DNA from: Candidatus Woesearchaeota archaeon
Lineage (GTDB): Archaea > Nanobdellota > Nanobdellia > Woesearchaeales > JACPBV01
DNA: 64,000 nt
Direction of reading: 5' to 3'
NCBI GenBank assembly: GCA_016188175.1
Contig: JACPII010000002.1
Span: forward strand, 4,865-68,864
The notes below the pieces were generated by a model. The model ran no database searches and was not told the origin of the DNA. It saw only the letters and a list, made by a program, of their open reading frames with translations. Both the position numbers and the translations under genes were made by a program. Of this stretch, positions 6,309-62,651 are shown piece after piece. Position 1 is the stretch's first letter. Each line of letters begins with the position of its first letter.

Positions 6309-8876
6309 ATGGGCTCCCCCCTTTCCCTTACACTGGACGACAAGCTTTCGATGCTCATTCATCGTGGATTTGATCGCCAGGAAGCGCTCGCTATTGTGGG
6401 ACAGCACCTCAAAGACAATACTTTCGACACAGGGCTGGACACCCTCTCAAGGGCGCTTGTCGTCGGAAAGGCTTTTGATAACGATGGGCATTGGAAAGGT
6501 TATATTCCTCTTGAAGATTTCAAACTTGTTCAAATTTTAGATAAAGTTGAAGGGAGGGATGGAAAGGGTTTGTATGACCAAACAGGCCGCCCAACCTCAC
6601 TTCTTCAAGAAGCCCGTGCAGGATACACAGGATTTAGGGAAAACCATCCGCAGGCAATAAAAAATGCAAAAATTGCCGCAGGGATTGCATTAGTTTTATG
6701 TGCTCAAGTAATTTCAGGTTGTGGAAATCCCCAGCAAAACAATGGCGATTCTTCCATTGATGCAGAAGCCCCTCCAGAAGCCCACTTTCCGGCTCAACTC
6801 TTACCGCCGGGCGGGGATTGGAAAACCTACCAGCTTCCGGGAATAGGTTTAGATGGGATCACTTCAGAAGAAAACCAAGCCCTTGGGCTGTTCTCATTGG
6901 TGGATACTCCCTCGCGACGAAAGATGGAAGGTGAATATCAGTATTTCATCGAGCAGTATGTTGTTAATGGCAAAGGCACAGATCATTTTCGGTTCAAGCT
7001 TTCCCATTGGGACAAAACAAAGGGCATTGAAGTTTTTGAGTTTGAGCCGCTGAATAGGGAAACCGTTGAGCGCCTGGAGCAAAAGCTCAGGGAAGAGGAA
7101 AAGAATCCCATCCCCGAGCAGCCGGGCGCCATCGGAGAAAAGAAAGAGGATGGCCAAAGTACCCGGCAGCAGGGAAATCTCCGTGACGAGGTCTTCAATC
7201 ACGGGGATGTTAAACCGGGAGAAGCAGACAAAACCAACCGGGAAGTCTTAGCTCCACATATCTATCGTGAAAGCCTCTTTAATGACCCGGGGATTATTTT
7301 AAAGGTCAGTGGCGCAATAAACGAGTTTCCTTATGATTTTTCTCCACTGGAAAGGCAAATTTCCTATGAGAAGGCGCTTAATCCGGGCCTGCCCGAGCAG
7401 CGGATAAGAAACTATTTTGGCAATCTTAGCAATAAGGTTGCCCATGCCCTGATAGGCATTTCCGGAAAGGCAACTCTGGATGATGCCGTTATAGAGCTTA
7501 AAAAAACAAGGGACGGAAAAATAGCTATAATCCGGACTATCGCCGAATCTCTCATCAGGCAAAATTGGGTTTATCGTCCGGTCGAAAAGCTTGGAGACTC
7601 ATTTAATCCAGGCCATGTCAGGGACAATTATGTTTATTCAGACTGCAATACCTGCCTCCAGGATGCATATCTTGAAGTTGCAAGGAACTTAGGGCTGCCC
7701 TTATTTTTTGTGTGTGCGCCGAATCACGCGTACGGCCTCTGGAAAGACAAGTTTCACTCAATTGAGGTTGAGGCAACAGCCTCAAGAGCAAAGAAGTACC
7801 GGGAAGAGACAGATCAAGAAGGCAATACCAAAGTAGTTGAATTGCACCAGGATGTTCCGGATTATGACCGCCTCACTTCCGCCCTTGGAACCCATCACTC
7901 CGACAGTAGGCTCACCTCCCGCGGGGAGAAGCGTGTCCAGACAGGCGCATGGTTTTCTCCCGTAACAGAAAGCCCCCATCTTGATGAGATAATCCGGCTT
8001 TCCCTAAACTCCGACAGGCTGGAAAAATTTTACCGCCAGCTTGAGGAAAACCCGATGGTAATTGCTGAGATAATGAAGATTACTGATGGAGATTCTAAGG
8101 TTGGATATAGAAGCACAAACCCATGGGTGATCGATAATGTGCATGAAAGGTTAAAGGCTGCAATTGAGGCATCTCTTGAGGTTGGAGCTCCCATCCTCGC
8201 CAGAAAGGCAACAGATTTTCTTGAAAAATATTTAAAAAAGCATAATGTCAGTTTTATGGAGGATGAAAATAATATCCCGCTCCTAAGGCGAAGGATCTAC
8301 TCATTGGAAAACCCCCGGGACCTTGCCGCGAAGCTCAACACCGTCGATGAGCGCATTTATGATGGCAGGGGCCTGCGGGAAACCCTTGAAGAAAAAAAGA
8401 AAGATTATCAGGCAAGGTATAATGCTGCCGCAAGGGCAAACAACTTTACCCCTTTTTTAGAATTTTTGGTCCAGGAAACGGGGGAGAGCGCAGCATGGGT
8501 GCCGTTGGCTGGAGTGATGGGCCAATATCTCCAGAATAACAACCCCCGGGAAGCAGACGAACTGGCTGAGAAAGGACGGAAAAAAATAACTGAAATAGTC
8601 CAGGGAATTGCGGATGAAGCTGATAAACATGATGAAGGGACACCCGAAAATGATGTTGCCAGTTATGTTGCAAATAACATTGTGAATATGCTCCTGGGAA
8701 AAAGGTTCCGTTCTGCCTTAAGAACGGGCCCATGGGAGGATTTGGGAATTCCGCAGGAAGAATGGGCTGCCTACAATAAGATTTACCGGCAATATGAAGA
8801 CTTCCAACAGACGGCTTACAACCTGTCAAGGCTCCTCGTCAGTGAGTTAAAAGTAAAATTCCAAGGCCAAGAATAA
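6309..8876 (+). CDS. Large hypothetical membrane-anchored protein (855 aa). It has a hydrophobic segment plus lipobox-like ISGC at residues ~125-140 and a possible transglutaminase-like Cys/His/Asp core (DCNTC...NHAYGLW...EVEAT).
   Basis: ORF track, long ORF with coding-like composition. The motif resemblance is only from memory. Confidence 0.55.
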   Translation: MGSPLSLTLDDKLSMLIHRGFDRQEALAIVGQHLKDNTFDTGLDTLSRALVVGKAFDNDGHWKGYIPLEDFKLVQILDKVEGRDGKGLYDQTGRPTSLLQEARAGYTGFRENHPQAIKNAKIAAGIALVLCAQVISGCGNPQQNNGDSSIDAEAPPEAHFPAQLLPPGGDWKTYQLPGIGLDGITSEENQALGLFSLVDTPSRRKMEGEYQYFIEQYVVNGKGTDHFRFKLSHWDKTKGIEVFEFEPLNRETVERLEQKLREEEKNPIPEQPGAIGEKKEDGQSTRQQGNLRDEVFNHGDVKPGEADKTNREVLAPHIYRESLFNDPGIILKVSGAINEFPYDFSPLERQISYEKALNPGLPEQRIRNYFGNLSNKVAHALIGISGKATLDDAVIELKKTRDGKIAIIRTIAESLIRQNWVYRPVEKLGDSFNPGHVRDNYVYSDCNTCLQDAYLEVARNLGLPLFFVCAPNHAYGLWKDKFHSIEVEATASRAKKYREETDQEGNTKVVELHQDVPDYDRLTSALGTHHSDSRLTSRGEKRVQTGAWFSPVTESPHLDEIIRLSLNSDRLEKFYRQLEENPMVIAEIMKITDGDSKVGYRSTNPWVIDNVHERLKAAIEASLEVGAPILARKATDFLEKYLKKHNVSFMEDENNIPLLRRRIYSLENPRDLAAKLNTVDERIYDGRGLRETLEEKKKDYQARYNAAARANNFTPFLEFLVQETGESAAWVPLAGVMGQYLQNNNPREADELAEKGRKKITEIVQGIADEADKHDEGTPENDVASYVANNIVNMLLGKRFRSALRTGPWEDLGIPQEEWAAYNKIYRQYEDFQQTAYNLSRLLVSELKVKFQGQE

Positions 8877-30925: not shown

Positions 30926-33900
30926 ATGCGAGTTTCATCCACTTCCCTCCTGTTGATTTCTGTCGGCTTCATCCTTGCCATTCCTTTTGCTTATAGCCCC
31001 GTAATCGAGAGGGGTGGCTGCAGCCTTACCCTCAACGCAATGGCTGACGACGTCATCTGGGTTACTTTAACGAGCGGAACGGATGGAAGCATTAAAGCTG
31101 AGGGAAATCCTGGAAGTACCGGCTCTGACAGGTTTGAAAACCCCTTCAAAGCAAACCCAGGAGATATTCTCAGGGTAAGGGCGATTGACACAAAGCCCTG
31201 TGGGGCAGGGTTTGGAAAGCCTATTGGCTTTGAGTCATGGGACATTTTTAAAACGAGATGGATGGGGTATGAGCCAGCAACCGTTGAAGCAGCTTCCCCC
31301 AAGACATTCCTTGAATCACCGATAATTCTACCTAATTCGCCTGTCGGCATGAAGGTTACCAAGAATGGCAAGGATATTATCGACTACAAGATACAAACAT
31401 ACTTTGATCCGAACGATAATAAATGGAAGTTTCCGGAAGGCTGCGGAACTCCTGGGTGGTATCCAGACCCCAAGGATTTTTCTGACCGCTATCAGCCAGT
31501 ATATAAAATAGTTGACTGGTATAGGCCAGACGTGGTTGTGAAGGGGGGATATTGGGGCGACGATGGGGCGTATCATGACCCCGTCATCGAGAGAAATCCT
31601 GCAAAGGGCTATGTCTTCTACGACAGCGGAAATATTGTCTTAAGCCATACGTGCAAATGCGAAAACATTGGCTCCAGCTTTCCCACAATCCAGGGAACAT
31701 CCTCAGGAATTCTCAATGGCAAGTTTGTTGAGCTTTATGACTACTGTACTGATGGGACAGTTGACCAGCTAACAGGATTTCCCTCTGAATTTGTGTTTGA
31801 TCTCAGCTCAGATAAATATATCCCTTCCTATTTTGATTCAGAGGCGCTTAAATGGCACCCCTCTCCAAACGGAATCGCCCGAGCAGAACTCACCCATGTT
31901 GCAAAGGGTTCTTGTTCGGAGGGAGAAACGGGGCCATTGGAGATTTCCGTAAAAGAATGCCCCCAAGGCTCAAAATGTGTGGCTGGCGCTTGTTCCTGCG
32001 GCGACAGCGACAGGAAGGGGAAATATTCTAGGATTGATGTAAAGGGCACCACAACGGGATTTGATTATGGAAAGGCCCTAACCCACACCGATTTTTGTGT
32101 AACTTTTTTCGGGGATGAACAAAACAAGGGGGCATTCTATCCCTATACGACAAATTTCAAGAGTGTCGAAATCCCCTGCCCGCCAGATGAGCCGGGAAAG
32201 GGGCCATGTTACAGGGTTGTTCCCCAGGAAAACAAGAATATGGATTTACCGTCATTTGAATCTCTGCAAAAGAAGTGGAGTTCAGGCGGGGATGCTGCCT
32301 ACCAGGGCATTATGAAACTGGCAACATACGATAATAGTGGAAACAATGTTGGAAATGCCGTCATTGAAGGCGATTGCGTATATGACAAATCAGTCAAACT
32401 GAGTATAGCTCCCTGCGCACAAAGCTGCAGGGATGGAGCCTGCGTTCCGTATGAGGGGGCTAAAGTGGATATCTATCCGGCAAGAGATGAAGGAAAAAAG
32501 CAGGAATCTGGCAAGGAAATATCAGAACCATCAATCAACGAAAGGGAAGCGATAGTCTGCAAGGCAACACTTTCAAACCCTCCAAAAAACATTTATGTGA
32601 ATGTTGTCAAAGAAATTGACGGAATAAAATCAGCCTATGTGGCAAGGGGAGTTCCCCCGCCCGGCTGCAAGATTAATCCAAATTCCGCTGAATGCAGGGG
32701 ATATGTCCAATGCAAGGAAACAAACGCAGGAGTCACTTGCGTATCTCTCATTGACCCAGTGGAAGGTTCTGGCTTCCCCTACCCCCAGGTCGAAAAGATG
32801 CCATTTGATTTTAACGGAAAAAAGTGGAACCAGAGAGCGCTTCTTTCATGCGAGGTGGAGGTTGATGGAAAAAAATACACTTCCCAAAACAAAGTTAGGG
32901 TGAGGGGGAATGAAAAGAATAAGGATTTTTACCCGCAAAAAAGTGTTTTCCTTGTCCCTTTTAACGGGCTGTACCACGACGTCCTCAGCATTCTCCCTGC
33001 AGCAATTTGGGAAGACAAACAAGACAGGTATTGGTGCTCTCACCCAAAAACATCGGACAATAAAGAAGTTGGTGATAAATGTTATTACCCATTTTTGGTA
33101 TATCAAAAGGAAGATTCATTATACGACATCGAAAGCATTCGCTATTTTATCAATCAGCAATACAACTCCCTTCCCCAGGGCTCCGATGTCACCATCTTTA
33201 GCATTGGAAAATTCCTTAGTGAGTCTGGGATTAACGCAAAGGAAGTAAAAGAACTCTCTCCTTCTGACGTGTTGAACGAAAACTACTTTTGGAAGGAATT
33301 CTCAACCGTTGTTGTAGCCAATCTTGACCCCATTTCCTACAATGAAGCAATTTTGGGAGCTCAGCTTGCCTCCTACCTAAACGCCCCACTGATGTTCGCA
33401 TCGGACAGGGCAACCGCCACGTGGATAAATCTCTTCAAAAACCCTTCCAAAAAATATAGTGTGGTCCTCATGCCAGGCGTCGAACAGGGAGTGATTGACG
33501 ATATTGCAAAAAATGGCCATTTCTTGGTGAAATATGAAAATGGAGATTTTTCATATAACGATGGAAAACCTGAGCAAACCTTCAAACAGGAGGAAGATGT
33601 CCAGAAAGCATTACAGATCCACAAGCGGATTGACAAAATAATAATCGCCAACCCCTCCGACAAGCTATCCGCTTTCTGCGAGAACAATCTTCCCTTCCAA
33701 GGCCTTCCTGCCCTGAAAGAGTGGTATTGCCGAACATCGTTATCTGCCCCTATCCTCGCAGCAGGAAGGGATTGGCTGCCCACATTTGTTTATACGACAA
33801 GGTCAGCCCCAGGAATTTTCTTTTCCTCAGAAAGCAAGCAACAGGGATCAGGAACAAGGGAGGGAGGAGAAAAAGGAGCAGGCCAGGCCGAAACAGGTTC

Positions 33901-36900
33901 AACGAAGGCCGATGCAGCCTCCCAAGCACCAGCCCTTTCTCCGCCATCTAACCCGGAAGAGGAGATTGTCTCAATTGCAAAAAAACAAATTCAACCCCAG
34001 GTAGCTTCTATCTTAAGCTCATTTAAGCCAAAGTACGCCTTATTCCTTGCAGCGCCTAAAGCCATCCCGCTTAGCAAAATGAAAGGAAGTGATGGCCTCC
34101 AACGCTTATCACTGGACCGCTCCTATGTTGACCTAAATTTTGACGGGAAGGAAGACATCCCATTCGGAAGGCTCTATACAAAAACGATAACGGGAACTTC
34201 AGTGTACATGAATAGGATACTCTCAAACACCCAGCAGGAAAAGAATACATTTCTCTCTGTTGCGCACTCTTTCGAAGACCTCCAGACTCATTTTGACACA
34301 TTGGACATGCAGCTTCCATCCATGGGATACGACGAGGCTGACTGTTATCTCGCTTTTGATCCTTTAGGGAGATGCCAAAAAGGGGTTCCCCCCTCACCCT
34401 ACGACCCATACCAAGAAAAAAAAATAATATATTACGATGACCACGGAAGTTCCGACCAATGGAGCTCGACAATCCCCGCAAAGGATATTCCGCAATTGAG
34501 TTCCTCCCTCGTTATCTCAGATGCCTGCCTCACCAACGATTATTATAACTCCCCCGACGGGTATGTTTTTGGACCGGAAGCAATCGAAAAGGGAGCCCTT
34601 TCCTATCTGGGGGGTGTGGGAACTACTGCTGCCCGGGAAGGCCACATCCTGCAATCCGGAATTGGAGAAGATTTATTCAGGCTCGTTGTCAGCGAGAGAA
34701 ACCTTGACCTAGGCACTGCCCTCCAAGAGCTTTACCGGGGACTGACACCTGTAAGCAGCGACTACCTCCTCCTCGGTGACCCAACATTTACCCCATCCAT
34801 CCCAAGATTTTCATATCCTTATATTGTTAGACATGACCTCCAGGATAACCCAACATTGGGCTCCTCATTCTCTTTCCAGGTGTCAGACCAAGATGGGCCA
34901 GATAACGTTGGAGACATTAAGGTTCTCATCACAAGAAAAGAGGATAATGTCGTAAAAGAGGTCGCCCCAAAGTGCGAAAAGAGAAGCGACCATTGGTCCT
35001 GCACGATGGCATTCGATGATCTGTCTCTCATGCAAAAGGACCTTCTCGTGGAGATGAGGGCATATGACAAGAAAAACGAAAAATACGGTGCCGTCTACAA
35101 AGATGTTAAAAAAATCAAAGTTATTGAAATATCGGTCGTTGAATGCCGAATGGAGACTTCAGGCGTTGAGGGAACATGCACCGCGCATATCAAGGTTCAA
35201 AAGGACAATATCGGGGAGGTCAAATTCACCAAGCTTGAGGGGGGAATAATAAATCCCCCTTATCCAGAAAATAAAGGATGCGCATGGTCGAATAATAACC
35301 ACGAGTACCTCTGTAAGTTCACGTTTACCCCAGAAGACCCCGGGGATTACAAGATAAAGGTTGATGCAGAAACAAAATCTGTTGACGATGCTGGCAAGCC
35401 ATTTTCGGACGATGAAACGACGACATTCCGGGCATCCCCCATTGATGTCGCCAGGTATAGTTGCACAGAGTCCTTAGACCATCAAAAATGGGATTGTAAA
35501 TTAGATGTTAAGGCCAAAAAAGGGGACTTGGGCAAAGCAACGCTATCCAGCATTTCTGGGCCAGCAATTGCCCCACCAGAGCCTCAAGGAGGCTGCGTAT
35601 GGAACGAGGAAAGGGGATTAAATGTCTGCACATTCCTGTTTACCTTTCCAAAAGTTGGAAAGTATTCCCTCGTGTTTTCTGCATTCACCAATTCAATCGA
35701 TCCCAAGGACGGGAAGCCGTTCTTTGATTTTGAATATTTTGAAAAAGACCTCAACCCGATAAAGATTTCGTGGATAGAATGTTCCACTCCCAATATCGAC
35801 CAAGAGATTGTTTGCACAACCACCATGTACGTTGACCCAGCACAATGGGGGGATGCAGGGTTCTCTATTTTAGAAGGGGGGCCATATGAGCCGACACCAC
35901 TTACAACAAACTGTAAACAGGAGGGTCAAGAAAAGATAGAAGTTGTATTAAAGCCGAAGGTTAAATGCGAGACGAAATTTACTCCAAAAAGTGCTGGAAC
36001 CTACCGAATTGAGATGAAAGTGTCCACCAAACCGGCCGATGGAACCCAACCCCTAACGGGTACAGTGGAGACCACCCTAAACGTTAAAGCTATAAAAATG
36101 ACAGATATTGATTGTGGAGAATCAGTTATCGGAGCTGTTACCAAATGCATGGTCAACATTCTCGCCCCTAAAAACACATTGGGAACAGTTACCCTGGGGG
36201 CAGAGAAGGGATTTATTGACCCGGGCTCTGTTCTCGTCGAATGCCAATGGGACGGTAATAAATTTTATGACTGCGAATTCGAATTTACCCCCGGACAGGA
36301 AGGCGCACTTCTCATAAAAGTAGCCGCCGCTTCACTTTTAACAGACTCAAATAACAACCCCTATTCAGCTGAGGCCGAAAAACAGATTAATGTCGGGAAC
36401 ATCAAGATTAAGATTACCTCATGGAGCATAGTTGTTTTGGGAGTAAAAGGAAGGTTGTATTTCAAGGTTAAGGCCAAAAAAGATTCCTTTGACAGAGCAA
36501 TTTTGGAGAGGAAAGGCGGGGCAGAAGTTGATATCCCCGCTCCACAGGCGCAATGCGAATGGAATGAAGAACGGGCATTATTCACATGCAAAGCTGAATT
36601 TGTTCCCAAAGCTATAGGCTCCACCACCCTCCAGGCCACCGCATACCTAAAAGAGCCGGCAAGTAACCCTGCCGCCGCTACAGTCTCCCTTTTTGATAAA
36701 ATATCCGCATTGCAATGGGGTTTCCCTGGATGCAATCCAGCAATTATAGGAAGGAATGTTATATGTTCAATCGAGATATATTCATCCAAGGAGCTATTTA
36801 ACGGATTGACAATAAAAAAAGAAAGCGGGCCGGAGGTCGAAATTCCAGATGCGCCATCCTGCTTATGGAGGGAGCAACCCCAGCGGTTTGAATGCAAGTA

Positions 36901-37048
36901 CAGTTTTACCCCAAAAGGAACGGGAAAATTAAAGTTAGTGTTGACTGCAGAAATTCATCCCCCGGGAGGCAGCCCCATAAAGGTGAGCAAATCTCTTGAT
37001 TTCGAGCCGTTATCCATTATTAAAGATGATACCGAGGTAAAGCCATGA
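30926..37048 (+). CDS. Giant secreted/cell-surface protein (2040 aa). N-terminal signal peptide, Cys-rich N-terminal region, a clan CD (gingipain C25-like) cysteine peptidase core around residues 1150-1300 (HGSSDQW ... SDAC ... LLGDPT), a low-complexity linker, and six C-terminal ~105-aa Ig-like repeats with motif C-x-W-x5-7-C-x-F-x-F-x-P.
   Basis: ORF track. Signal peptide MRVSSTSLLLISVGFILAIPFAYS. TATA TTTTTATAAGG ~25 nt upstream (leaderless). Motif comparison from memory. Confidence 0.85.
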   Translation: MRVSSTSLLLISVGFILAIPFAYSPVIERGGCSLTLNAMADDVIWVTLTSGTDGSIKAEGNPGSTGSDRFENPFKANPGDILRVRAIDTKPCGAGFGKPIGFESWDIFKTRWMGYEPATVEAASPKTFLESPIILPNSPVGMKVTKNGKDIIDYKIQTYFDPNDNKWKFPEGCGTPGWYPDPKDFSDRYQPVYKIVDWYRPDVVVKGGYWGDDGAYHDPVIERNPAKGYVFYDSGNIVLSHTCKCENIGSSFPTIQGTSSGILNGKFVELYDYCTDGTVDQLTGFPSEFVFDLSSDKYIPSYFDSEALKWHPSPNGIARAELTHVAKGSCSEGETGPLEISVKECPQGSKCVAGACSCGDSDRKGKYSRIDVKGTTTGFDYGKALTHTDFCVTFFGDEQNKGAFYPYTTNFKSVEIPCPPDEPGKGPCYRVVPQENKNMDLPSFESLQKKWSSGGDAAYQGIMKLATYDNSGNNVGNAVIEGDCVYDKSVKLSIAPCAQSCRDGACVPYEGAKVDIYPARDEGKKQESGKEISEPSINEREAIVCKATLSNPPKNIYVNVVKEIDGIKSAYVARGVPPPGCKINPNSAECRGYVQCKETNAGVTCVSLIDPVEGSGFPYPQVEKMPFDFNGKKWNQRALLSCEVEVDGKKYTSQNKVRVRGNEKNKDFYPQKSVFLVPFNGLYHDVLSILPAAIWEDKQDRYWCSHPKTSDNKEVGDKCYYPFLVYQKEDSLYDIESIRYFINQQYNSLPQGSDVTIFSIGKFLSESGINAKEVKELSPSDVLNENYFWKEFSTVVVANLDPISYNEAILGAQLASYLNAPLMFASDRATATWINLFKNPSKKYSVVLMPGVEQGVIDDIAKNGHFLVKYENGDFSYNDGKPEQTFKQEEDVQKALQIHKRIDKIIIANPSDKLSAFCENNLPFQGLPALKEWYCRTSLSAPILAAGRDWLPTFVYTTRSAPGIFFSSESKQQGSGTREGGEKGAGQAETGSTKADAASQAPALSPPSNPEEEIVSIAKKQIQPQVASILSSFKPKYALFLAAPKAIPLSKMKGSDGLQRLSLDRSYVDLNFDGKEDIPFGRLYTKTITGTSVYMNRILSNTQQEKNTFLSVAHSFEDLQTHFDTLDMQLPSMGYDEADCYLAFDPLGRCQKGVPPSPYDPYQEKKIIYYDDHGSSDQWSSTIPAKDIPQLSSSLVISDACLTNDYYNSPDGYVFGPEAIEKGALSYLGGVGTTAAREGHILQSGIGEDLFRLVVSERNLDLGTALQELYRGLTPVSSDYLLLGDPTFTPSIPRFSYPYIVRHDLQDNPTLGSSFSFQVSDQDGPDNVGDIKVLITRKEDNVVKEVAPKCEKRSDHWSCTMAFDDLSLMQKDLLVEMRAYDKKNEKYGAVYKDVKKIKVIEISVVECRMETSGVEGTCTAHIKVQKDNIGEVKFTKLEGGIINPPYPENKGCAWSNNNHEYLCKFTFTPEDPGDYKIKVDAETKSVDDAGKPFSDDETTTFRASPIDVARYSCTESLDHQKWDCKLDVKAKKGDLGKATLSSISGPAIAPPEPQGGCVWNEERGLNVCTFLFTFPKVGKYSLVFSAFTNSIDPKDGKPFFDFEYFEKDLNPIKISWIECSTPNIDQEIVCTTTMYVDPAQWGDAGFSILEGGPYEPTPLTTNCKQEGQEKIEVVLKPKVKCETKFTPKSAGTYRIEMKVSTKPADGTQPLTGTVETTLNVKAIKMTDIDCGESVIGAVTKCMVNILAPKNTLGTVTLGAEKGFIDPGSVLVECQWDGNKFYDCEFEFTPGQEGALLIKVAAASLLTDSNNNPYSAEAEKQINVGNIKIKITSWSIVVLGVKGRLYFKVKAKKDSFDRAILERKGGAEVDIPAPQAQCEWNEERALFTCKAEFVPKAIGSTTLQATAYLKEPASNPAAATVSLFDKISALQWGFPGCNPAIIGRNVICSIEIYSSKELFNGLTIKKESGPEVEIPDAPSCLWREQPQRFECKYSFTPKGTGKLKLVLTAEIHPPGGSPIKVSKSLDFEPLSIIKDDTEVKP

Positions 37049-40055: not shown

Positions 40056-41294
40056 TCACTTGGGGGGCTGTTGCCGGCTTAATTCAATCTTTAATTGTTC
40101 GTCACTCATCGGACGAATGGTGACATAGTGCGCCGTAGCTATCACTTTGCATGTAGGTTCAGGAGAAAGGATAAAAGGAACCGAGAGGTCAAGGACAAAT
40201 CTTCCCGGACCCAATGGCCTTAAATCTGTATCATGCTGCTCAACACCGACAGTTTTTGCCATATTTGGCGCATATATGGTATAGATGGAGAGTACATCTT
40301 CCTTAGTTGCCCCAGTCACAGGAATCTGAAGGAGCCATGAAATGACCTCGCCGATGGTCAATGTTGTGGTATAGTCTTCATTAGTACCGCAGGGCATAAG
40401 GAGAGCATGGCCCCCTCCACTCATAAGACGGAAAAAATCAGCCTTGCAGTATTGCTCAAGAAGACTCCTGCCAAGAATAAATGATGAAGGCTTGTTCTGT
40501 CCAAGAGCTTGAGAGTTTCCAAGGGAATAAATGATTAACCTGTCCAAACGTGGGCCGCGATAGCTCTTCAAAAACTCAAAAATTCCCAGTGGGTTGGGAA
40601 ATGTTTCAAAACGAACATTATCAAAATCCAAGTTTACCCTTCTTCCCAGAAGGAGCCGGTCTATTCCTGAACTGTCGGTAAAGTCTGGATTGACGACTGC
40701 ATTTCTCTTTGCAAGAGTGTACGCCAATGGTTCCTGAAATTCGAGATTGTCAGGAATTCCCATTTCGGGAGTAAATTTGACTCTCCAATGTGTTGTTGAA
40801 AGATCTGAGAATTCCCCAACCAGGAGGCACATGACGTTAAATCTATACCTTGCAGGGTCAATTTCTTTTACAGGAACGGTAAGTATCTCCTGTCTTCGTG
40901 GTTTTTCCCACTGCTCATAGGGAATAGTAGTGCAGCCAGAGCCGGCCAAACACCAGTACAAAGCAGCAATGCCAATGCCAGTTGATGATCGATTTATAGG
41001 TGATGGCTCTGATGATGAATTTGATGATGATGGGTTTGATGATGACAGCCCCGTTGGTAGCGGTCCCCTCGAAGCGTAAGGCGCTGGAGTTCCATAAAGG
41101 GAGATAGTAGAAGGGGTAGGTAGGTAAGTTTTTGAACCACTTTTTGTTAGAGCATCCTTAGCCTTTTTACCCCCGGGGGGGCTTGAGAGCCGCCTCTTTG
41201 ATTTGTTTCCCAAACTCCCGGAAAAGGATTCTCGCCTTACACCTCCGGCATTCCGGAAGTGCTGGTGAACAAATGTTTGGCTGCGGTGATTCAT
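40056..41294 (-). CDS. Hypothetical protein with a Ser/Pro-rich ~100-aa N-terminus followed by a hydrophobic segment plus lipobox-like LAGSGC
   Basis: ORF track. TATA ~30 nt upstream of ATG 41294, adjacent to repeat E2. Confidence 0.55.
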   Translation of the reverse strand: MNHRSQTFVHQHFRNAGGVRRESFSGSLGNKSKRRLSSPPGGKKAKDALTKSGSKTYLPTPSTISLYGTPAPYASRGPLPTGLSSSNPSSSNSSSEPSPINRSSTGIGIAALYWCLAGSGCTTIPYEQWEKPRRQEILTVPVKEIDPARYRFNVMCLLVGEFSDLSTTHWRVKFTPEMGIPDNLEFQEPLAYTLAKRNAVVNPDFTDSSGIDRLLLGRRVNLDFDNVRFETFPNPLGIFEFLKSYRGPRLDRLIIYSLGNSQALGQNKPSSFILGRSLLEQYCKADFFRLMSGGGHALLMPCGTNEDYTTTLTIGEVISWLLQIPVTGATKEDVLSIYTIYAPNMAKTVGVEQHDTDLRPLGPGRFVLDLSVPFILSPEPTCKVIATAHYVTIRPMSDEQLKIELSRQQPPK

Positions 41295-41645: not shown

Positions 41646-44402
41646 ATGAAAAGTCCCAGCAAGCCCCAGATCATCGTAACAAGCGCATTGCCCTACGCGA
41701 ACGGCCCCATTCACGTAGGCCACCTTGTCGAATATATCCAGACAGACGCCTATGTAAGATTCCTCAAGCTCACCGGCGAAAACGCGCTTTACTGCTGCGC
41801 CGACGACACCCACGGAACCCCCATCCAGATCCTTGCAGAAAAAGAAGGCATCCTTCCGGAACAGCTGATCCAGAGGTACCATCAGGAGCACCTGAGGGAT
41901 TTCACTTCCTTCTCCATTGAATTCGACTCCTATTATTCGACGAACAGCAGCGAAAACAAGCAGCTCAGCGACCTGTTCTTTGAGCGCCTGAAAAAGAAAA
42001 AACTCATCTACACAAAAGAAGTCGAGCTCTCTTACTGCAGCCGATGCAATAGATTCCTTCCGGACAGGTATATCAAGGGCAAATGCCCAAAATGCAGCGC
42101 TCCTGACCAGTATGGGGATGTGTGCGAGCAATGCAACTCCACCCACGCAACGACCGACCTTGTTGACCCCTACTGCACCGTCTGTGGAACTCCCCCGGCA
42201 AAAAAGAGATCGAGCCATTATTTCTTCAGGCTCAGCTCATTTGCAGGATTCCTCAAAAGATGGTTTGCATCAAATAAAAGCCTCCAGCCGGAGATCAAGC
42301 ATTACCTCGAAAACTGGATCAAGGAAGGCCTCCAGGACTGGGACATCTCAAGAGACGGACCTTACTTTGGGTTCAAGATTCCCGGCGAAGAGGATAAATA
42401 TTATTATGTCTGGCTCGACGCCCCCATAGGATATATCTCAAGCTTCACTCACGCGATAGGCAATGACATCAAACAGGGGGAAAAGGGATGGAACAGCTCA
42501 ACGATTACCCATTTTATCGGTAAAGATATCATCTACTTCCACTTCTTGTTCTGGCCGGCTATGCTCGAAGCAGCAGGGTTCAAGCTTCCGGAAACCATCG
42601 TCGTCCATGGTTTTCTCACGGTAAACGGCGAAAAGATGTCCAAGAGCAGAGGCACATTCTTCACCGCAGAGGAATTCGCGAGCAAATACCCGCCGGAATT
42701 CCTCAGGTTCTATTACGCGAAGTCCTTGAGCAAGAAACTGGCAGACATCAACCTGGACTTTAAGGACTTCTACGAGGCTATCAACAATGAATTGGTCGGC
42801 AACATCGCCAATTACTGTTACCGGGCGCTGTCCTTCACCAACAGATTCCTCAATTCCGAGGTTGGGGAAAAAGCCAGGGATCCGAAGCTGGAAAAGACAA
42901 TATTGGAAAAAGCCGAAAAGATCAGGGGCGCCTATGCATCGTTCAACTTCAGCGAGGCAGTTAAGGAAATACTCGCCATCGCAGACCTGGGAAACCAATA
43001 TTTCCAGAAGGCCGAGCCCTGGAAGCTCGTGAAAGAAGATAAGGTGTCAGCCCAGCAAGCCGTGGCGTTGAACCTCAACATCGTAAAGATCCTTTCCATC
43101 CTGCTCGCTCCGATACTGCCGGCCTTCGCCAAAGAGCTCCAAAGCCAGCTCGGCATTGACAGATCATCCTGGAAAGACATCAATTTCACATTTGAAAACA
43201 AGACCATCGGCGATGCAAAGATTGTCTTGAACAAGATAGATGCAGAAGCCCCAGCCCTGGAGAAGAAAGAGCCCCGTAAGGAAATAAAAGTATCGACTGA
43301 GCCAGAAGCGAAAGCTCTGGGCATAAAGGTTGTCTGGGCAAGGATCGATGATGTTAATATCAAAAACAAGCACGAAGGTTTGGAGAGATATAAGAAAGTC
43401 ATCATTGAAGAAATAAAAAGTAAAGGTCTCTTGAACATCCCCTTCATCAAGGGGTATCATGACCTCTACGGCAGGTGCAATGTGTCCGATGGTGAAACTC
43501 CGCCGGAATACCTCCTGCGCCTCATCAAGGAAAAAGGAAGGCTTCCTTCTATCAATACAGCAGTAGACGCATACAACCTTGTCAGCCTGAAATACGCCCT
43601 TTCCTTGGGTGCCCACGATATCAGCAAGATACAAGGTAACGTTTCCATGAAAGTTTCTTCGGGCGGTGAAGAGTTCATCCCCTTGGGTTCAAAAGAGCCG
43701 GTACAAGTAAAGAAAGGAGAATATGTTTGCGCGGATGAAGAGCACGTCCTCTGCTGGCTTGATATCAAGCAGGGGATGTACACGCCGGTAGCCGCAAACA
43801 CAAAAAGCATCCTTCTGTATGCCCAGGGAAATAAGAACACCCCTGAAGATTCTCTAAGAAAATCGGTCGAGGAAGCCTGCAATCTTATTACAAAATACTG
43901 CGGAGGAGAATATGTGATCCTTTCCGAAAAGGAAGAATCTGCCCGTTTCCCGCTCAACCTCAAGGTCGGCAAAATAATTGGCGTCAAAGACCATCCTGAC
44001 GCGGAAAAGCTTTACATCCTGCAGGTCGACTTAGGAAACGAAAAAAGGCAGCTGGTTGCCGGATTGAAGGGCTATTACCCGAAAGAAGCCCTGCTCAACA
44101 AAAAAATAATCGTAGTTGCAAACCTGAAGCCGGCAAAATTAAGGGGCATCCTCAGCGACGGCATGCTCCTGGCAGCAGATGACGGAAAAACGGTTGAAGT
44201 GCTCCACCCGGAAGGAAACCCCGGAGATAAAGTCACCTGCGGGGATGCAGAAAACAGCACAGAAACGGTAACGTTTGAGGACTTTATGAAATCAACAATC
44301 GTAGTCAAGGATCGTCATGTCGTTTGCGATGGAAAGCCGTTGGACGTCAAGGGAAGATTGGTAAGTGTCAATAAAACGGGAGACGGGGCGAAAGTTCGAT
44401 AA
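41646..44402 (+). CDS. metG: Methionyl-tRNA synthetase. The core is followed by an inserted B3/4 (PheT editing-domain-like) domain and a C-terminal EMAP/Trbp111-type tRNA-binding domain, that is, a YtpR-like module fused to MetRS.
   Basis: HIGH (PYANGPIHVGH), KMSKS, Zn knuckles CSRC/CPKC. The B3/4 consensus (VDayN...HAhD...GE.f..L....AD....G......T) and the tRNA_bind motif (VGKIIGVKDHPDAEKLYILQVDLG) match from memory. Confidence 0.93.
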   Translation: MKSPSKPQIIVTSALPYANGPIHVGHLVEYIQTDAYVRFLKLTGENALYCCADDTHGTPIQILAEKEGILPEQLIQRYHQEHLRDFTSFSIEFDSYYSTNSSENKQLSDLFFERLKKKKLIYTKEVELSYCSRCNRFLPDRYIKGKCPKCSAPDQYGDVCEQCNSTHATTDLVDPYCTVCGTPPAKKRSSHYFFRLSSFAGFLKRWFASNKSLQPEIKHYLENWIKEGLQDWDISRDGPYFGFKIPGEEDKYYYVWLDAPIGYISSFTHAIGNDIKQGEKGWNSSTITHFIGKDIIYFHFLFWPAMLEAAGFKLPETIVVHGFLTVNGEKMSKSRGTFFTAEEFASKYPPEFLRFYYAKSLSKKLADINLDFKDFYEAINNELVGNIANYCYRALSFTNRFLNSEVGEKARDPKLEKTILEKAEKIRGAYASFNFSEAVKEILAIADLGNQYFQKAEPWKLVKEDKVSAQQAVALNLNIVKILSILLAPILPAFAKELQSQLGIDRSSWKDINFTFENKTIGDAKIVLNKIDAEAPALEKKEPRKEIKVSTEPEAKALGIKVVWARIDDVNIKNKHEGLERYKKVIIEEIKSKGLLNIPFIKGYHDLYGRCNVSDGETPPEYLLRLIKEKGRLPSINTAVDAYNLVSLKYALSLGAHDISKIQGNVSMKVSSGGEEFIPLGSKEPVQVKKGEYVCADEEHVLCWLDIKQGMYTPVAANTKSILLYAQGNKNTPEDSLRKSVEEACNLITKYCGGEYVILSEKEESARFPLNLKVGKIIGVKDHPDAEKLYILQVDLGNEKRQLVAGLKGYYPKEALLNKKIIVVANLKPAKLRGILSDGMLLAADDGKTVEVLHPEGNPGDKVTCGDAENSTETVTFEDFMKSTIVVKDRHVVCDGKPLDVKGRLVSVNKTGDGAKVR

Positions 44403-44412
44403 CAACCAGTAT

Positions 44413-44611
44413 GTATTAAGCTCCTATCGGAGCGGCTCTGCAATCTTCAAAACTCCCGATGGATTGTACGATGGCCCTGCGTCCCCGTAAGGGAAGGCGA
44501 AAAGTTCCGGTGCCTTTGGCACGGAGGGCGACCCCCGCGACGGTCTTGTTGTTTTCATCAATGGAGTTTTGACCTTAGGATGGCAGAGCCGCACTTAACG
44601 GAGCTTAATAC
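44413..44611 (+). mobile_element. MITE-like element, family A-D copy C (TIR GTATTAAGCTCCTATCGGAGCGGCTCTGC / GCAGAGCCGCACTTAACGGAGCTTAATAC)
   Basis: Terminal inverted repeats. Shares a core with copies A and B and 62337-62603. Confidence 0.6.
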
Positions 44612-44621
44612 ATGCACAACC

Positions 44622-45100
44622 ATGGTAAAAATCCAACTCCCGGTAGAGCACGAGATCAGCCTCTGGCTTGACACCTATGACGATATTTTCTCAGACTTTG
44701 ACCCGCGGCCTTATTCCGAACGCGCTCTCTCCGGCTTAAGCTCCTCCTTCCCGAAACCCAGAGAAACAGCGCCCATGAGTCGACCATCAAGCATCGCTTA
44801 AAGGAGCATTTCCAGAAGCACAACCGGGAGTTCAAGCGAAGAAGGAAAGAAATTGCGCTTCAGGGGGTTGCATTTGTCATCCTGGGAGTAGCCCTCATGT
44901 TCATCGCCTCCCTCATCCTGTTCAAAACAAGCGAAGACAGCCTAGGCAGGAGCTTCCTTATCGTTCTTCTGGAGCCCGCCGGATGGTTCCTCTTCTGGGA
45001 AGGCCTCAATCTCGTCATCTTTGAATCAAAGAAGATCCAGCCGGACTATCTTTTCTATGACAAGATGAGCAGGAGCCAGACGCAGTTTAATACCTATTAA
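44622..45100 (+). pseudogene. Frameshifted (or mis-sequenced) gene for a small membrane protein. The N-terminal part in frame 0 (44622-44801) and the C-terminal part in frame +2 (44702-45100, two TM helices) overlap. One extra A in the AAA run at 44764-44766 fuses them.
   Basis: Manual three-frame translation. Both parts have coding-like composition, and the second has no start of its own until 44897. Confidence 0.4.
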
Positions 45101-45334: not shown

Positions 45335-45925
45335 ATGGATGAACAAAATGAACCACTAATCACACTTTTCGGAAAAGTAGAGCTTGCTACGATAGAAAAA
45401 AAACTGAAAGGGACAAAGCTCAAGCAGACAGAAAAAAACTACCTATCGCGCTCCATCCGGCCAAAATTAAGGGCTGCACAGCTTGCCATTGGGCTGAACC
45501 TGTTATCAAGGATAAGCAACAGGAAAAAAGAGAATACTATTTTGATTGAAAATAACCTTGATTTTTATGGATACCCCTTGATAGGAATAAGAAAACGGCC
45601 AATAAAAAGATTCATCGAAGCAATCCCCATACTGATAACAAAAAACCCAATTGACCCGTTCAAATTGCTTGAGATTGCAGCAAAACACGGCATAAAAAAC
45701 CAGATAGGGTACCTGTTGGAAACAGCATTCACCATAAAGCCGGTGCCAAAGCTCAAGCCGCTTCTCAAATACCTGGAAGATTCCAAAGAGCAGCGCATCC
45801 AGCAATTAGTCGAGGGTGATGCAGAGTTTCTGAAAAAGACTTCCCCCTCAAGGATAAAAAGATGGAATCTGTTAGGTAGGTTCTTTGACGAAGATTTCAA
45901 GGCATTGGCAGAGGCATACCCATGA
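45335..45925 (+). CDS. Hypothetical protein, upstream partner of an NTase-like gene (ATGA overlap)
   Basis: ORF track. Confidence 0.5.
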   Translation: MDEQNEPLITLFGKVELATIEKKLKGTKLKQTEKNYLSRSIRPKLRAAQLAIGLNLLSRISNRKKENTILIENNLDFYGYPLIGIRKRPIKRFIEAIPILITKNPIDPFKLLEIAAKHGIKNQIGYLLETAFTIKPVPKLKPLLKYLEDSKEQRIQQLVEGDAEFLKKTSPSRIKRWNLLGRFFDEDFKALAEAYP

Positions 45926-46425
45926 TCGATAAGAGCGCCTTGCTCCAATGGCTAAAGGAGATAGACCTCAGACTCAAAAGCAGGATGACCATTGTAGCAG
46001 TTGGCGGAACTGCAATGACCTTATTAGGTTTGAAGCCCTCAACAATAGACATTGACCTGTGTGTAACCGCAAAGGATAAACTCAAACTTGAAAGCACCGC
46101 AGGAAAGAAGTTTAGGGTGGATTTTTTTACCGACGGTTATATCTTCTCCGAGCAGTTGCCGGAGGATTACGTCGAAAAGGCAAAAGAGATCCTCGCATTG
46201 AAGAACCTTGTCGTGAAAGCGTTAAGCCCTGGGGATATTATCATCACGAAAGCTGCTAGGCTTAATGCGCGGGACGAGGAAGACATCAAATCTTTAGTGA
46301 AATTCGTTGCCAGGGAAGAATTGATTGAAAGATTTTCCCAAGTTGTTGGAACATATGCAGGCAATGAAGAGCAATACCGATATCACATGGAAGTCATATT
46401 GAGAAGGTTCTACAGCCAGCCATAG
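45922..46425 (+). CDS. Nucleotidyltransferase-fold protein (AbiEii/MNT-like)
   Basis: IVAVGGTAMTLLGLKPSTIDIDLCV NTase motif. Confidence 0.5.
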   Translation: MIDKSALLQWLKEIDLRLKSRMTIVAVGGTAMTLLGLKPSTIDIDLCVTAKDKLKLESTAGKKFRVDFFTDGYIFSEQLPEDYVEKAKEILALKNLVVKALSPGDIIITKAARLNARDEEDIKSLVKFVAREELIERFSQVVGTYAGNEEQYRYHMEVILRRFYSQP

Positions 46426-62314: not shown

Positions 62315-62336
62315 TAATAATCCTTGCTTTTTCCGT

Positions 62337-62603
62337 GTGTATTAAGCTCCTATCGGAGCGGCTCTGCAATCTTCAAAACTCTTAATGTGTTTCAAGATAG
62401 CCCTGCGTCCCCGTAAGGGAAGGCGAAATGTTCCGGTGCCTTCGGCACGGAGGGCGACCCCCGCGACGGTCTGGCTGTTTTTTTCCAAAGACACAAATAT
62501 GTATACCCAATTGTTGTGTCTTTCGATATAGCAGGTGAAATTTTGCATGATTAATTTTGTCACCTGCTATAGGATGGCAGAGCCGCACTTAACGGGGCTT
62601 AAT
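62337..62603 (+). mobile_element. MITE-like element, family A-D copy D. Like copy C but with an ~80-bp internal insert made of two perfect hairpins (AAAGACACAA/TTGTGTCTTT and ATAGCAGGTGA/TCACCTGCTAT).
   Basis: TIRs and core are ~90% identical to 44413-44611. Confidence 0.6.
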
Positions 62604-62651
62604 ACATACCTTTTTCCGAAAAAGGATATGACAGGAATCATTAAATAATCA

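What the first reader, a model, noticed from the sequence alone, without database searches (positions are those of the whole stretch)
43240..43900. MetRS carries an internal B3/4 (PheRS-beta editing-type) domain in front of its C-terminal EMAP-like tRNA-binding domain
MetRS is 918 aa instead of the usual ~700. Between the anticodon-binding domain and the Trbp111/EMAP tRNA-binding domain lies a ~200-aa segment whose central part matches the B3/4 signature (GRLPSINTAVDAYNLVSLKYALSLGAHDISKI...GGEEFIPL...YVCADEEHVL...GMYTPVAANTKSILL). B3/4 is the Tyr-tRNA(Phe) editing module of PheRS-beta, and standalone YtpR proteins are B3/4 plus tRNA_bind. A MetRS-YtpR fusion suggests an appended editing or deacylase activity, which is unusual for MetRS.
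Basis: partly seen in the sequence, partly recalled or inferred. Interest (0 to 1): 0.6.

Follow-up and report, generated by a model that had tools for sequence, protein, structure and literature searches.

The report
MetRS with inserted CtdA-like deacylase domain
This archaeal methionyl-tRNA synthetase carries, inside a linker, a complete copy of a normally free-standing aminoacyl-tRNA deacylase (the CtdA / B3/4 family), which probably gives it a proofreading step that no studied MetRS has; the design is common in uncultivated archaea and I found no paper describing it.

Summary
ORF 41646-44402 (+) is a 918-aa MetRS with a ~228-aa insert (aa 533-760) between the anticodon-binding domain and an EMAPII-like tRNA-binding domain. 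The insert scores 80 bits on Pfam B3_4 (cut-off 29.3).

The interpretation needs correcting. The insert is not a PheRS-beta fragment or a YtpR. It is a whole free-standing B3/4 protein of the CtdA (canavanyl-tRNA deacylase) type, with Foldseek TM 0.85/0.81 to 9mkl.

The CtdA residues Tyr-Asn, Cys and Gln are conserved (84-100%) in 55 fused homologues. The two CtdA glutamates are replaced by neutral His657 and Gln727.

The architecture is not rare. At least 71 GTDB species genomes carry it: DPANN, Bathyarchaeia, uncultured Methanosarcinales and some CPR bacteria.

It is patchy. A syntenic relative (about 85% nt identity in the shared metG) lacks exactly this module, and a tree of 120 sequences needs at least 10 gain/loss events.

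Best reading (0.6): a cis post-transfer editing module that clears tRNA-Met charged with a neutral methionine analogue. The substrate is unknown. No paper describing the fusion was found.

The parts
41646..44402 (+). metG ORF, 918 aa, with stop codon
   Evidence: ORF list. NCBIfam NF001100 methionine--tRNA ligase, 786.9 bits against cut-off 587.
41673..42827 (+). Class I catalytic (Rossmann) domain, aa 10-394
   Evidence: Pfam tRNA-synt_1g, E 2.7e-143. Many catalytic-domain residues are invariant in fused and unfused homologues alike, for example K330-M-S-K-S334, W256 and H299.
42876..43178 (+). MetRS anticodon-binding domain, Pfam match aa 411-511 (the helical domain continues to about aa 532)
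   Evidence: Pfam Anticodon_3, E 2.5e-16. AF2 model helices run to aa 502.
43242..43925 (+). Inserted module, aa 533-760: a short linker plus a complete free-standing-type B3/4 (CtdA-like) protein
   Evidence: Exactly this segment is missing from the syntenic orthologue L001/P0001. phmmer matches CtdA 9f7e (2.5e-8) and 9mkl (1.2e-7) in register. The AF2 model (pLDDT 95.2) gives Foldseek TM 0.85/0.81 to 9mkl over the whole chain.
43482..43904 (+). Pfam B3_4 match, aa 613-753
   Evidence: PF03483, E 2e-22, 80.1 bits against cut-off 29.3.
43545..43619 (+). Pocket motif P634-x-I-N-T-x-V-D-x-Y643-N644 ... G655-x-H657-D658
   Evidence: Y643/N644 correspond to CtdA Y104/N105, which the CtdA papers report as needed for activity. 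P634, N637, D641, Y643, N644 and D658 are 100% conserved, H657 96% and G655 85%, in 55 fused homologues. The DNA motif occurs once in the window and 0 times in shuffles.
43752..43772 (+). Pocket strand C703-W-L-D-I-K708-Q709
   Evidence: C703 = CtdA C166 and Q709 = CtdA Q173. C 84%, K 96%, Q 100% in fused homologues.
43824..43832 (+). Q727-G728-N729 motif
   Evidence: Q727 aligns with CtdA E191. Q 78%, G 100%, N 98% in fused homologues.
43959..44216 (+). OB-fold tRNA-binding domain, aa 772-857
   Evidence: Pfam tRNA_bind, E 3.3e-29. Pyrococcus MetRS C-terminal domain 1mkh, E 8.6e-32.
44217..44399 (+). EMAPII-type C-terminal subdomain, aa 858-918
   Evidence: The alignment to EMAPII 1euj/1fl0 runs over query residues 6-142 of the 154-aa C-terminal piece. 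The region is modelled as beta strands with pLDDT above 90.

Best explanation
The gene encodes a working MetRS. A complete CtdA-family (free-standing B3/4) aminoacyl-tRNA deacylase has been built into its flexible linker, between the anticodon-binding domain and the EMAPII-like tRNA-binding domain.

Proposed mechanism:
1. tRNA-Met is held through its CAU anticodon by the MetRS body, helped by the C-terminal OB domain.
2. After aminoacyl transfer, the flexible CCA end can swing from the synthetic site into the B3/4 pocket.
3. There a water molecule, positioned by the conserved Tyr643-Asn644 pair, hydrolyses the ester bond if the aminoacyl group is a non-cognate, uncharged methionine look-alike. 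Candidates are homocysteine, norleucine, ethionine or an environmental or host-derived non-proteinogenic analogue.
4. Met-tRNA-Met is rejected.

The module is accessory. It is present or absent between close relatives, as expected for protection against a niche-specific antimetabolite.

Shown here: domain identity, fold, conservation of pocket residues, taxonomic distribution, and the exact boundaries of the presence/absence difference.
Inferred: hydrolytic activity, action in cis on tRNA-Met, and the nature of the substrate.
For: Identity and fold:
- The B3_4 HMM hit is far above threshold.
- The whole insert matches experimentally characterised aa-tRNA deacylases (CtdA 9f7e, 9mkl) by sequence, in register.
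- It matches them by predicted fold too, TM 0.84-0.85, better than PheRS-beta at 0.54-0.67.

Pocket conservation:
- Residues reported as needed for CtdA activity (Y104, N105, C166, Q173; PMC12449066 and PMC12268091) correspond to Y643, N644, C703 and Q709.
- These are 84-100% conserved in 55 fused homologues whose inserts are only 34-46% identical to this one.
- The two CtdA glutamates, E118 and E191 (canavanine is cationic), are replaced by conserved neutral His657 (96%) and Gln727 (78%). This fits an uncharged side chain.

Link to MetRS (Rosetta-stone argument):
- Among 119 GTDB genomes matching the His-type motif, 71 are MetRS fusions, 1 is a cut B3/4-tRBD, 45 are free-standing and 2 have other contexts.
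- The module is attached to MetRS in three different ways: internal, C-terminal without the tRNA-binding domain, and N-terminal in P0055.

Wider family behaviour:
- Sister B3/4 subtypes with different pocket signatures are fused to class IIb aaRS, to a GluRS-type anticodon domain and to YbaK. The family therefore behaves as a plug-in editing module.
- The nearest free-standing relative, P0122, sits in what looks like a non-canonical amino-acid biosynthetic cluster. That is the setting in which tRNA deacylases act as self-resistance genes (PMC13149037).
- The same paper shows that tRNA-Met mischarged with a Met analogue is a real editing substrate, in that case for an AlaX-family enzyme.
Against: - No biochemical data exist for any member of this subfamily.
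- The same pocket signature (H657/C703/KQ/QGN) occurs in free-standing proteins and in fusions to YbaK and to an oxidoreductase. It is therefore not exclusive to MetRS, and the substrate need not be a Met analogue.
- The module is dispensable. Relatives 84-88% identical in the protein lack it, and the residues that are invariant across the catalytic domain are invariant in both forms.
- MetRS already removes homocysteine before transfer (established knowledge), so homocysteine is not an obvious need.
Confidence: 0.6

Rival explanations
1. A general trans-acting deacylase that is merely tethered to MetRS. The B3/4 module hydrolyses some mischarged or non-canonical aminoacyl-tRNA unrelated to tRNA-Met, or strips Met from non-cognate tRNAs such as unmodified tRNA-Ile2(CAU). 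On this view the fusion only provides co-expression and a nearby general tRNA-binding domain.
For: - The same pocket signature is found in free-standing proteins and in YbaK and oxidoreductase fusions.
- In this protein the module sits directly next to a non-specific EMAPII/Trbp111-type tRNA-binding domain.
- The module is readily lost.
Against: - MetRS is overwhelmingly the fusion partner: 71 of 119 motif-positive genomes.
- 31 of those 71 fusions show no tRNA-binding domain, although some of these are cut at a contig or locus end. Proximity to that domain is therefore not what is selected.
- Other partner synthetases carry B3/4 subtypes with different pocket residues.
Confidence: 0.2
2. A non-catalytic RNA-binding or scaffolding domain. 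The B3/4 fold is used only to grip the tRNA acceptor end or another partner, as B3/4-like domains do in non-editing proteins such as LRRC47.
For: - JGI annotates these proteins as 'DNA/RNA-binding domain of Phe-tRNA-synthetase-like protein'.
- B3/4-like folds occur in ribosome-associated LRRC47 (8xp3 hit).
- Two glutamates needed for CtdA catalysis (E118, E191) are not kept.
Against: - The strongest conservation in the insert falls on the pocket residues that match the CtdA Tyr-Asn, Cys and Gln, not on surface basic patches.
- The His and Gln replacements are themselves conserved, which points to a retuned pocket rather than a decayed one.
Confidence: 0.15
3. An artefact: an assembly chimera, a pseudogene or a chance HMM hit.
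For: - The exact protein is not on record in the assembly index.
- No close relative of the insert (more than 46% identity) was found anywhere.
Against: - The ORF is uninterrupted and in frame, and AF2 folds the whole protein with high confidence (pLDDT 90.8).
- The same architecture, with the same boundaries, recurs in dozens of independent assemblies, including the complete genome CP010424.
- GC3 of the insert (0.52) lies within the range of the window's genes (0.40-0.68) and is close to that of the adjacent C-terminal domain (0.55).
Confidence: 0.02

Closest known systems
CtdA, canavanyl-tRNA(Arg) deacylase (free-standing B3/4 protein; PDB 9f7e, 9mkl)
   Same: - Same fold over the full ~225 aa (TM 0.85/0.81).
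- Sequence match in register.
- Shares the Tyr-Asn pair, the pocket Gly, Cys166 and Gln173 equivalents.
   Different: - Fused inside a synthetase instead of free-standing.
- The partner is MetRS, not ArgRS.
- CtdA E118 and E191 are His657 and Gln727, so the pocket is uncharged.
- Only 16-20% identity in the structural alignment.
- Activity untested.
B3/4 editing domain of bacterial PheRS beta (Tyr-tRNA-Phe hydrolysis)
   Same: - Same Pfam family and fold.
- Shares the Asn equivalent to E. coli N254.
- Works in cis within a synthetase.
   Different: - Weaker match (phmmer 1e-4 to 0.07; TM 0.54-0.67).
- The key PheRS residues His265 and Gly318 are Gly655 and Gln709.
- Domain order is reversed (B3/4 before tRNA_bind), and the B2 and B5 neighbours are absent.
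AlfB, an AlaX-family deacylase of (2S,3R)-hydroxymethionyl-tRNA-Met (Nat Chem 2026, PMC13149037)
   Same: It is precedent that tRNA-Met mischarged with a Met analogue is edited after transfer by an accessory deacylase.
   Different: - Unrelated fold (AlaX).
- Acts in trans.
- Bacterial, and encoded inside a biosynthetic cluster.
CP1 editing domains of class Ia LeuRS/IleRS/ValRS, and the ThrRS-ED fused to SepRS (PMC8762117)
   Same: The same logic: a hydrolytic module attached to a synthetase so that the CCA end can shuttle between two sites. The SepRS case shows editing modules being shuffled onto new synthetases in uncultivated lineages.
   Different: - Different folds and different insertion points.
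- In characterised MetRSs the CP1 domain has no post-transfer editing activity (established knowledge).

Membership tests
Methionyl-tRNA synthetase (NCBIfam NF001100 / TIGR00398) | Equivalog HMM score above the curated cut-off; KMSKS motif present | tested here: met
   786.9 bits against 587, and 555 bits against 336. K330-M-S-K-S334 is invariant in the alignment.
Pfam B3_4 (PF03483) | HMM score above the gathering threshold | tested here: met
   80.1 bits against 29.3, E 2e-22, profile positions 13-174 of 174.
CtdA / free-standing B3/4 aa-tRNA deacylase family | Whole ~220-230 aa fold, including the N-terminal beta-alpha part that precedes the Pfam core | tested here: met
   Foldseek 9mkl_A: E 2.8e-16, TMq 0.85, TMt 0.81. 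Free-standing homologues cover 85-95% of the insert.
CtdA / free-standing B3/4 aa-tRNA deacylase family | Tyr104-Asn105 pair needed for activity | tested here: met
   Y643 and N644, 55 of 55 conserved.
CtdA / free-standing B3/4 aa-tRNA deacylase family | Pocket residues G116, C166 and Q173 | tested here: met
   G655 (85%), C703 (84%) and Q709 (100%).
CtdA / free-standing B3/4 aa-tRNA deacylase family | Glu118 and Glu191 (reported as relevant for CtdA catalysis in PMC12268091; a role in recognising canavanine is my inference) | tested here: not met
   H657 and Q727 instead. This is therefore not a canavanine-specific CtdA.
CtdA / free-standing B3/4 aa-tRNA deacylase family | Encoded as a stand-alone protein | tested here: not met
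   In frame inside metG.
CtdA / free-standing B3/4 aa-tRNA deacylase family | Hydrolysis of a mischarged aa-tRNA | not testable with these tools
   Needs a biochemical assay.
PheRS beta editing domain (bacterial type) | Editing-site residues equivalent to E. coli His265 and Gly318 | tested here: not met
   In the HMM alignment with P. aeruginosa PheT, position 655 is H in PheT and G here; position 709 is G in PheT and Q here. Glu334 falls outside the aligned PheT fragment and was not compared.
YtpR (NCBIfam NF045760) | Equivalog HMM above cut-off, including the N-terminal YtpR domain | tested here: not met
   28.1 bits against a cut-off of 100. Only profile positions 77-155 (the tRNA_bind part) match, to aa 766-841.
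EMAPII-like tRNA-binding domain | OB fold plus the extra C-terminal subdomain | tested here: met
   1euj/1fl0 aligned over query residues 6-142 of the 154-aa piece, E 4e-21.

The most novel reading that the evidence does not exclude
A large, undescribed class of MetRS enzymes in DPANN archaea, Bathyarchaeia, some Methanosarcinales and CPR bacteria carries true post-transfer editing, supplied by a CtdA-type B3/4 cassette. This would be the first post-transfer editing domain known for MetRS. The cassette is one of a set of plug-in editing modules, with other subtypes attached to class IIb aaRS, GluRS-type domains and YbaK. These modules are swapped in and out between close relatives in response to local amino-acid antimetabolites.
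Probability: 0.45. Interest if true: 0.75.

Novelty: new variant of a known kind. Interest (0 to 1): 0.6.

Why it matters
Characterised MetRSs are known to proofread only before transfer (homocysteine cyclisation) and to have no post-transfer editing domain. A widespread MetRS with a built-in deacylase would change that picture.

It would also:
- give the uncharacterised, non-canavanine branch of the CtdA family a probable tRNA partner (tRNA-Met);
- point to an unidentified methionine antimetabolite that matters to host-dependent, amino-acid-scavenging archaea and CPR bacteria;
- offer natural paired alleles with and without the module (this window against L001, about 85% nt identity in metG) as a ready-made experiment.

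Engineered MetRS is a main tool for incorporating Met analogues, so a natural editing module for such analogues also has practical interest.

Tried and rejected
Literature
- Searches for MetRS together with B3/B4, CtdA, DPANN or editing-domain fusions returned nothing that describes this architecture.
- The two CtdA structure/evolution papers and the tRNA-deacylase discovery paper do not mention aaRS fusions.
- The library is incomplete, so absence of a paper is not proof.

Searches for close relatives of the insert
- The search for related loci with a 26-sequence insert alignment failed because no stretch was conserved enough. I replaced it with a hand-made degenerate DNA motif.
- The exact-protein look-up for the window's MetRS found nothing on record.
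- The metagenome scan for close relatives of the insert found a single locus, at 46% identity. No donor or sister insert has been sampled.

Gain versus loss: not resolved
- The NJ backbone tree places this MetRS, with P0001, inside 19-taxon and 29-taxon clades (bootstrap 91 and 76) in which it alone has the insert. That favours re-gain.
- Insert divergence, however, tracks core divergence as in other fused pairs.
- GC3 shows no foreign signal specific to the insert.
- The relation among this MetRS, P0001 and P0063 is a trichotomy: 7, 5 and 4 informative sites.
- Event counts on the tree: at least 10 mixed changes, 13 if gains only, 21 if losses only. Deep nodes of the tree are weakly supported.

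Other
- The YtpR reading is rejected.
- No second B3/4 copy exists in the window, and no tRNA genes.
- Rfam gave nothing for the repeat element next to the gene.
Full report
**1. What is there**

ORF 41646-44402 (+) encodes a 918-aa protein. NCBIfam scores it as methionine--tRNA ligase well above the equivalog cut-off (786.9 against 587 bits).

Pfam finds four domains:
- the class I catalytic domain, aa 10-394;
- the MetRS anticodon-binding domain, aa 411-511;
- a B3_4 domain, aa 613-753 (E 2e-22, 80.1 bits against a cut-off of 29.3);
- a tRNA_bind OB domain, aa 772-857.

The last 60 residues complete an EMAPII-type domain, because the C-terminal 154 aa align with EMAPII 1euj over query residues 6-142.

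The window is archaeal. It encodes an RpoA'-type RNA polymerase subunit and a ThrRS with the archaea-specific editing domain. It is syntenic with a Woesearchaeota MAG, GCA_016180135.1.

**2. What the insert is**

The 231-aa segment starting at aa 541 matches free-standing proteins best in the PDB:
- CtdA canavanyl-tRNA deacylase 9f7e, E 2.5e-8;
- 9mkl, E 1.2e-7.

Both matches are in register: query residue 80 aligns with chain residue 81. PheRS-beta chains score much lower, from 1e-4 to 0.07.

Free-standing B3/4 proteins of 212-229 aa cover 85-95% of the insert.

An AF2 model of aa 545-760 (pLDDT 95.2, pTM 0.91) superposes on the whole CtdA chain with TM 0.85/0.81. It superposes on PheRS-beta only at TM 0.54-0.67. 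The full-length model is also confident (pLDDT 90.8).

The segment is therefore an entire CtdA-family protein placed into the MetRS linker. It is not a fragment of PheT.

The YtpR idea fails. The YtpR model matches only through its tRNA_bind portion and scores 28 bits against a cut-off of 100.

**3. The pocket**

The two CtdA papers give the functionally important residues (PMC12449066; PMC12268091). They map onto this MetRS as follows:

| CtdA residue | This MetRS | Conservation in 55 fused homologues |
|---|---|---|
| Y104 | Y643 | 100% |
| N105 | N644 | 100% |
| G116 | G655 | 85% |
| E118 | H657 | 96% |
| C166 | C703 | 84% |
| Q173 | Q709 | 100% |
| E191 | Q727 | 78% |

The inserts of those 55 homologues are only 34-46% identical to this one. 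Also conserved are P634, N637, D641, D658, D697 and G728 (100%), N729 (98%) and K708 (96%).

So the hydrolytic core of CtdA is kept under strong constraint. The two acidic residues are replaced by conserved neutral ones.

The bacterial PheRS editing residues His265 and Gly318 are not reproduced: these positions are G655 and Q709.

**4. Distribution**

About half of the 120 best full-length homologues have the same ~915-aa architecture. They come from Woesearchaeota, Nanoarchaeota and 'Bathyarchaeota' MAGs.

An exhaustive phmmer search with the insert found 1661 cluster representatives at E <= 1e-3. Pfam scans of the long ones show:
- MetRS-B3/4-tRNA_bind;
- MetRS with a C-terminal B3/4 and no tRNA_bind;
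- B3/4 fused to a YbaK-type editing domain;
- B3/4 fused to class IIb synthetases, at either end;
- B3/4 fused to a GluRS-type anticodon domain;
- B3/4 fused to a GFO/IDH/MocA oxidoreductase.

One homologue, P0055, carries the module at the N-terminus of MetRS.

Classified with HMMs, they break down as:
- 40 MetRS-B3/4-tRBD;
- 31 MetRS-B3/4 without tRBD or cut at a contig or locus end;
- 1 B3/4-tRBD cut at the locus end;
- 45 free-standing;
- 2 other.

Record titles place the fusions as follows:

| Taxon (as titled in the record) | MetRS fusions |
|---|---|
| Woesearchaeota | 17 |
| Bathyarchaeia | 16 |
| Unclassified 'archaeon' | 11 |
| Iainarchaeota (includes complete genome CP010424) | 7 |
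| Aenigmatarchaeota | 4 |
| Uncultured Methanosarcinales | 4, plus 1 cut locus |
| CPR bacteria | 4 |
| Micrarchaeota | 3 |
| Nanoarchaeota | 3 |
| Pacearchaeota | 1 |
| Krumholzibacteriaceae (L092) | 1 |

The architecture is thus neither unique nor the archaeal norm.

**5. Presence/absence dynamics**

Contig L001 (encoding P0001) is syntenic with the window, with about 85% nucleotide identity in the shared parts of metG. Its MetRS is 88% identical in the core, the tRNA-binding domain and the tail, but lacks exactly aa 533-760. The junctions read 'KIVLNKIE-EKSKKNKFPLNLKV' in P0001 and 'KIVLNKID[...228 aa...]EKEESARFPLNLKV' here.

A second syntenic relative, P0063/L123, also lacks the insert.

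All ~40 nearest homologues by core identity (63-88%) lack it. Fused homologues are 53-63% identical in the core.

On an NJ tree this protein groups with P0001 (bootstrap 100). The pair sits inside clades of 19 and 29 sequences (bootstrap 91 and 76) in which this protein alone has the insert.

Other close pairs also differ only by the module: P0002/P0090 at 91% and P0005/P0098 at 90% core identity. The boundaries are the same in all pairs at alignment resolution.

The tree needs at least 10 state changes: 13 if gains only, 21 if losses only.

Gain versus loss for this lineage stays open:
- Insert divergence follows core divergence as in other fused pairs.
- GC3 is unremarkable: insert 0.52, adjacent C-terminal domain 0.55, genes in the window 0.40-0.68.
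- No insert closer than 46% identity exists in any collection searched.

**6. Mechanism**

The most likely function is a post-transfer editing site acting on tRNA-Met, as set out under the best explanation. The arguments in its favour are:
- homology to proven deacylases;
- constraint on the hydrolytic residues;
- neutralisation of the cation-binding positions;
- the overwhelming and architecturally varied association with MetRS;
- partner-specific pocket variants on other synthetases;
- the biosynthetic-cluster context of the nearest free-standing relative;
- the recent demonstration that analogue-charged tRNA-Met is edited by an accessory deacylase in bacteria (PMC13149037).

Its dispensability between close relatives fits an accessory, niche-dependent protective role.

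The main reservations are these:
- The same pocket signature occurs outside MetRS fusions.
- The substrate is unknown.
- No member of the subfamily has been assayed.

Rival readings are listed separately with their weights: a tethered general trans-deacylase (0.2), a non-catalytic RNA-binding domain (0.15) and an artefact (0.02).

**7. Novelty**

I found no paper describing a MetRS-B3/4 fusion. The 2025 evolutionary study of CtdA reports only free-standing genes and mentions no fusions.

Public annotation simply calls these proteins 'methionine--tRNA ligase'.

I rate it a new variant of a known kind: a cis-editing synthetase built from a CtdA-family deacylase. Interest is moderate to high. It is lowered because the architecture is visible in routine domain annotation, and because function is inferred only.

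Noticed in passing
window 44408-44617 and 62335-62609: Two copies of a MITE-like element of ~210 and ~275 nt. They have terminal inverted repeats (GTATGTATTAAGCTCC ... GGAGCTTAATACATGC), a highly conserved GC-rich core and short flanking duplications (CAACC at copy 1). Copy 1 is absent from the syntenic relative L001. There is no Rfam match.
   Followed up: partly
window 44365-45100: The gene downstream of metG is intact in L001 (192 aa, overlapping the metG 3' end). Here it is broken by the MITE insertion after about codon 14 and by a 58-nt deletion at 44733/44734 that shifts the frame. It is probably a pseudogene.
   Followed up: partly
window 45335-46425 compared with L123 1733-2739: The cassette between metG and the beta-propeller gene differs between close relatives. 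The window has a 196-aa ORF plus a DUF6036 nucleotidyltransferase. The Woesearchaeota MAG GCA_016180135.1 has DUF433-MazE-PIN. This looks like a variable slot for toxin-antitoxin-like genes.
   Followed up: no
proteins P0127, P0269, P0278, P0150, P0136 (not in the window): Free-standing-type B3/4 modules are also fused to class IIb (Asp/Asn/Lys-type) synthetases at either end, to a GluRS-type anticodon domain, to a YbaK/ProX editing domain and to a GFO/IDH/MocA oxidoreductase. The synthetase fusions have pocket signatures different from the MetRS-fused type.
   Followed up: partly
protein P0055 (not in the window): A 972-aa MetRS with the B3/4 module at the N-terminus (aa 1-219) instead of in the linker. 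This is an independent way of joining the same two parts.
   Followed up: no
L002 1-8652 (contig Ga0210611_13037670): The nearest free-standing relative, P0122, lies among two aminotransferases, an ATP-grasp enzyme, a TENA/haem-oxygenase-like protein, an MR/MLE-family enzyme, a thioesterase and PhzF genes. This looks like a gene cluster for non-canonical amino-acid biosynthesis with a deacylase as a self-resistance gene.
   Followed up: no
L092 (DATKWN010000042.1, labelled Krumholzibacteriaceae bacterium): A contig binned as a bacterium carries the full archaeal-type MetRS-B3/4-tRBD gene (925 aa). This is either mis-binning or a horizontal transfer.
   Followed up: no
window 30926-37048: A 2040-aa ORF with only weak Peptidase_C25 and filamin-repeat matches, probably a large surface protein. 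Also, an 855-aa ORF (6309-8876) and the 412-aa gene upstream of metG (40056-41294, minus strand) have no Pfam match.
   Followed up: no
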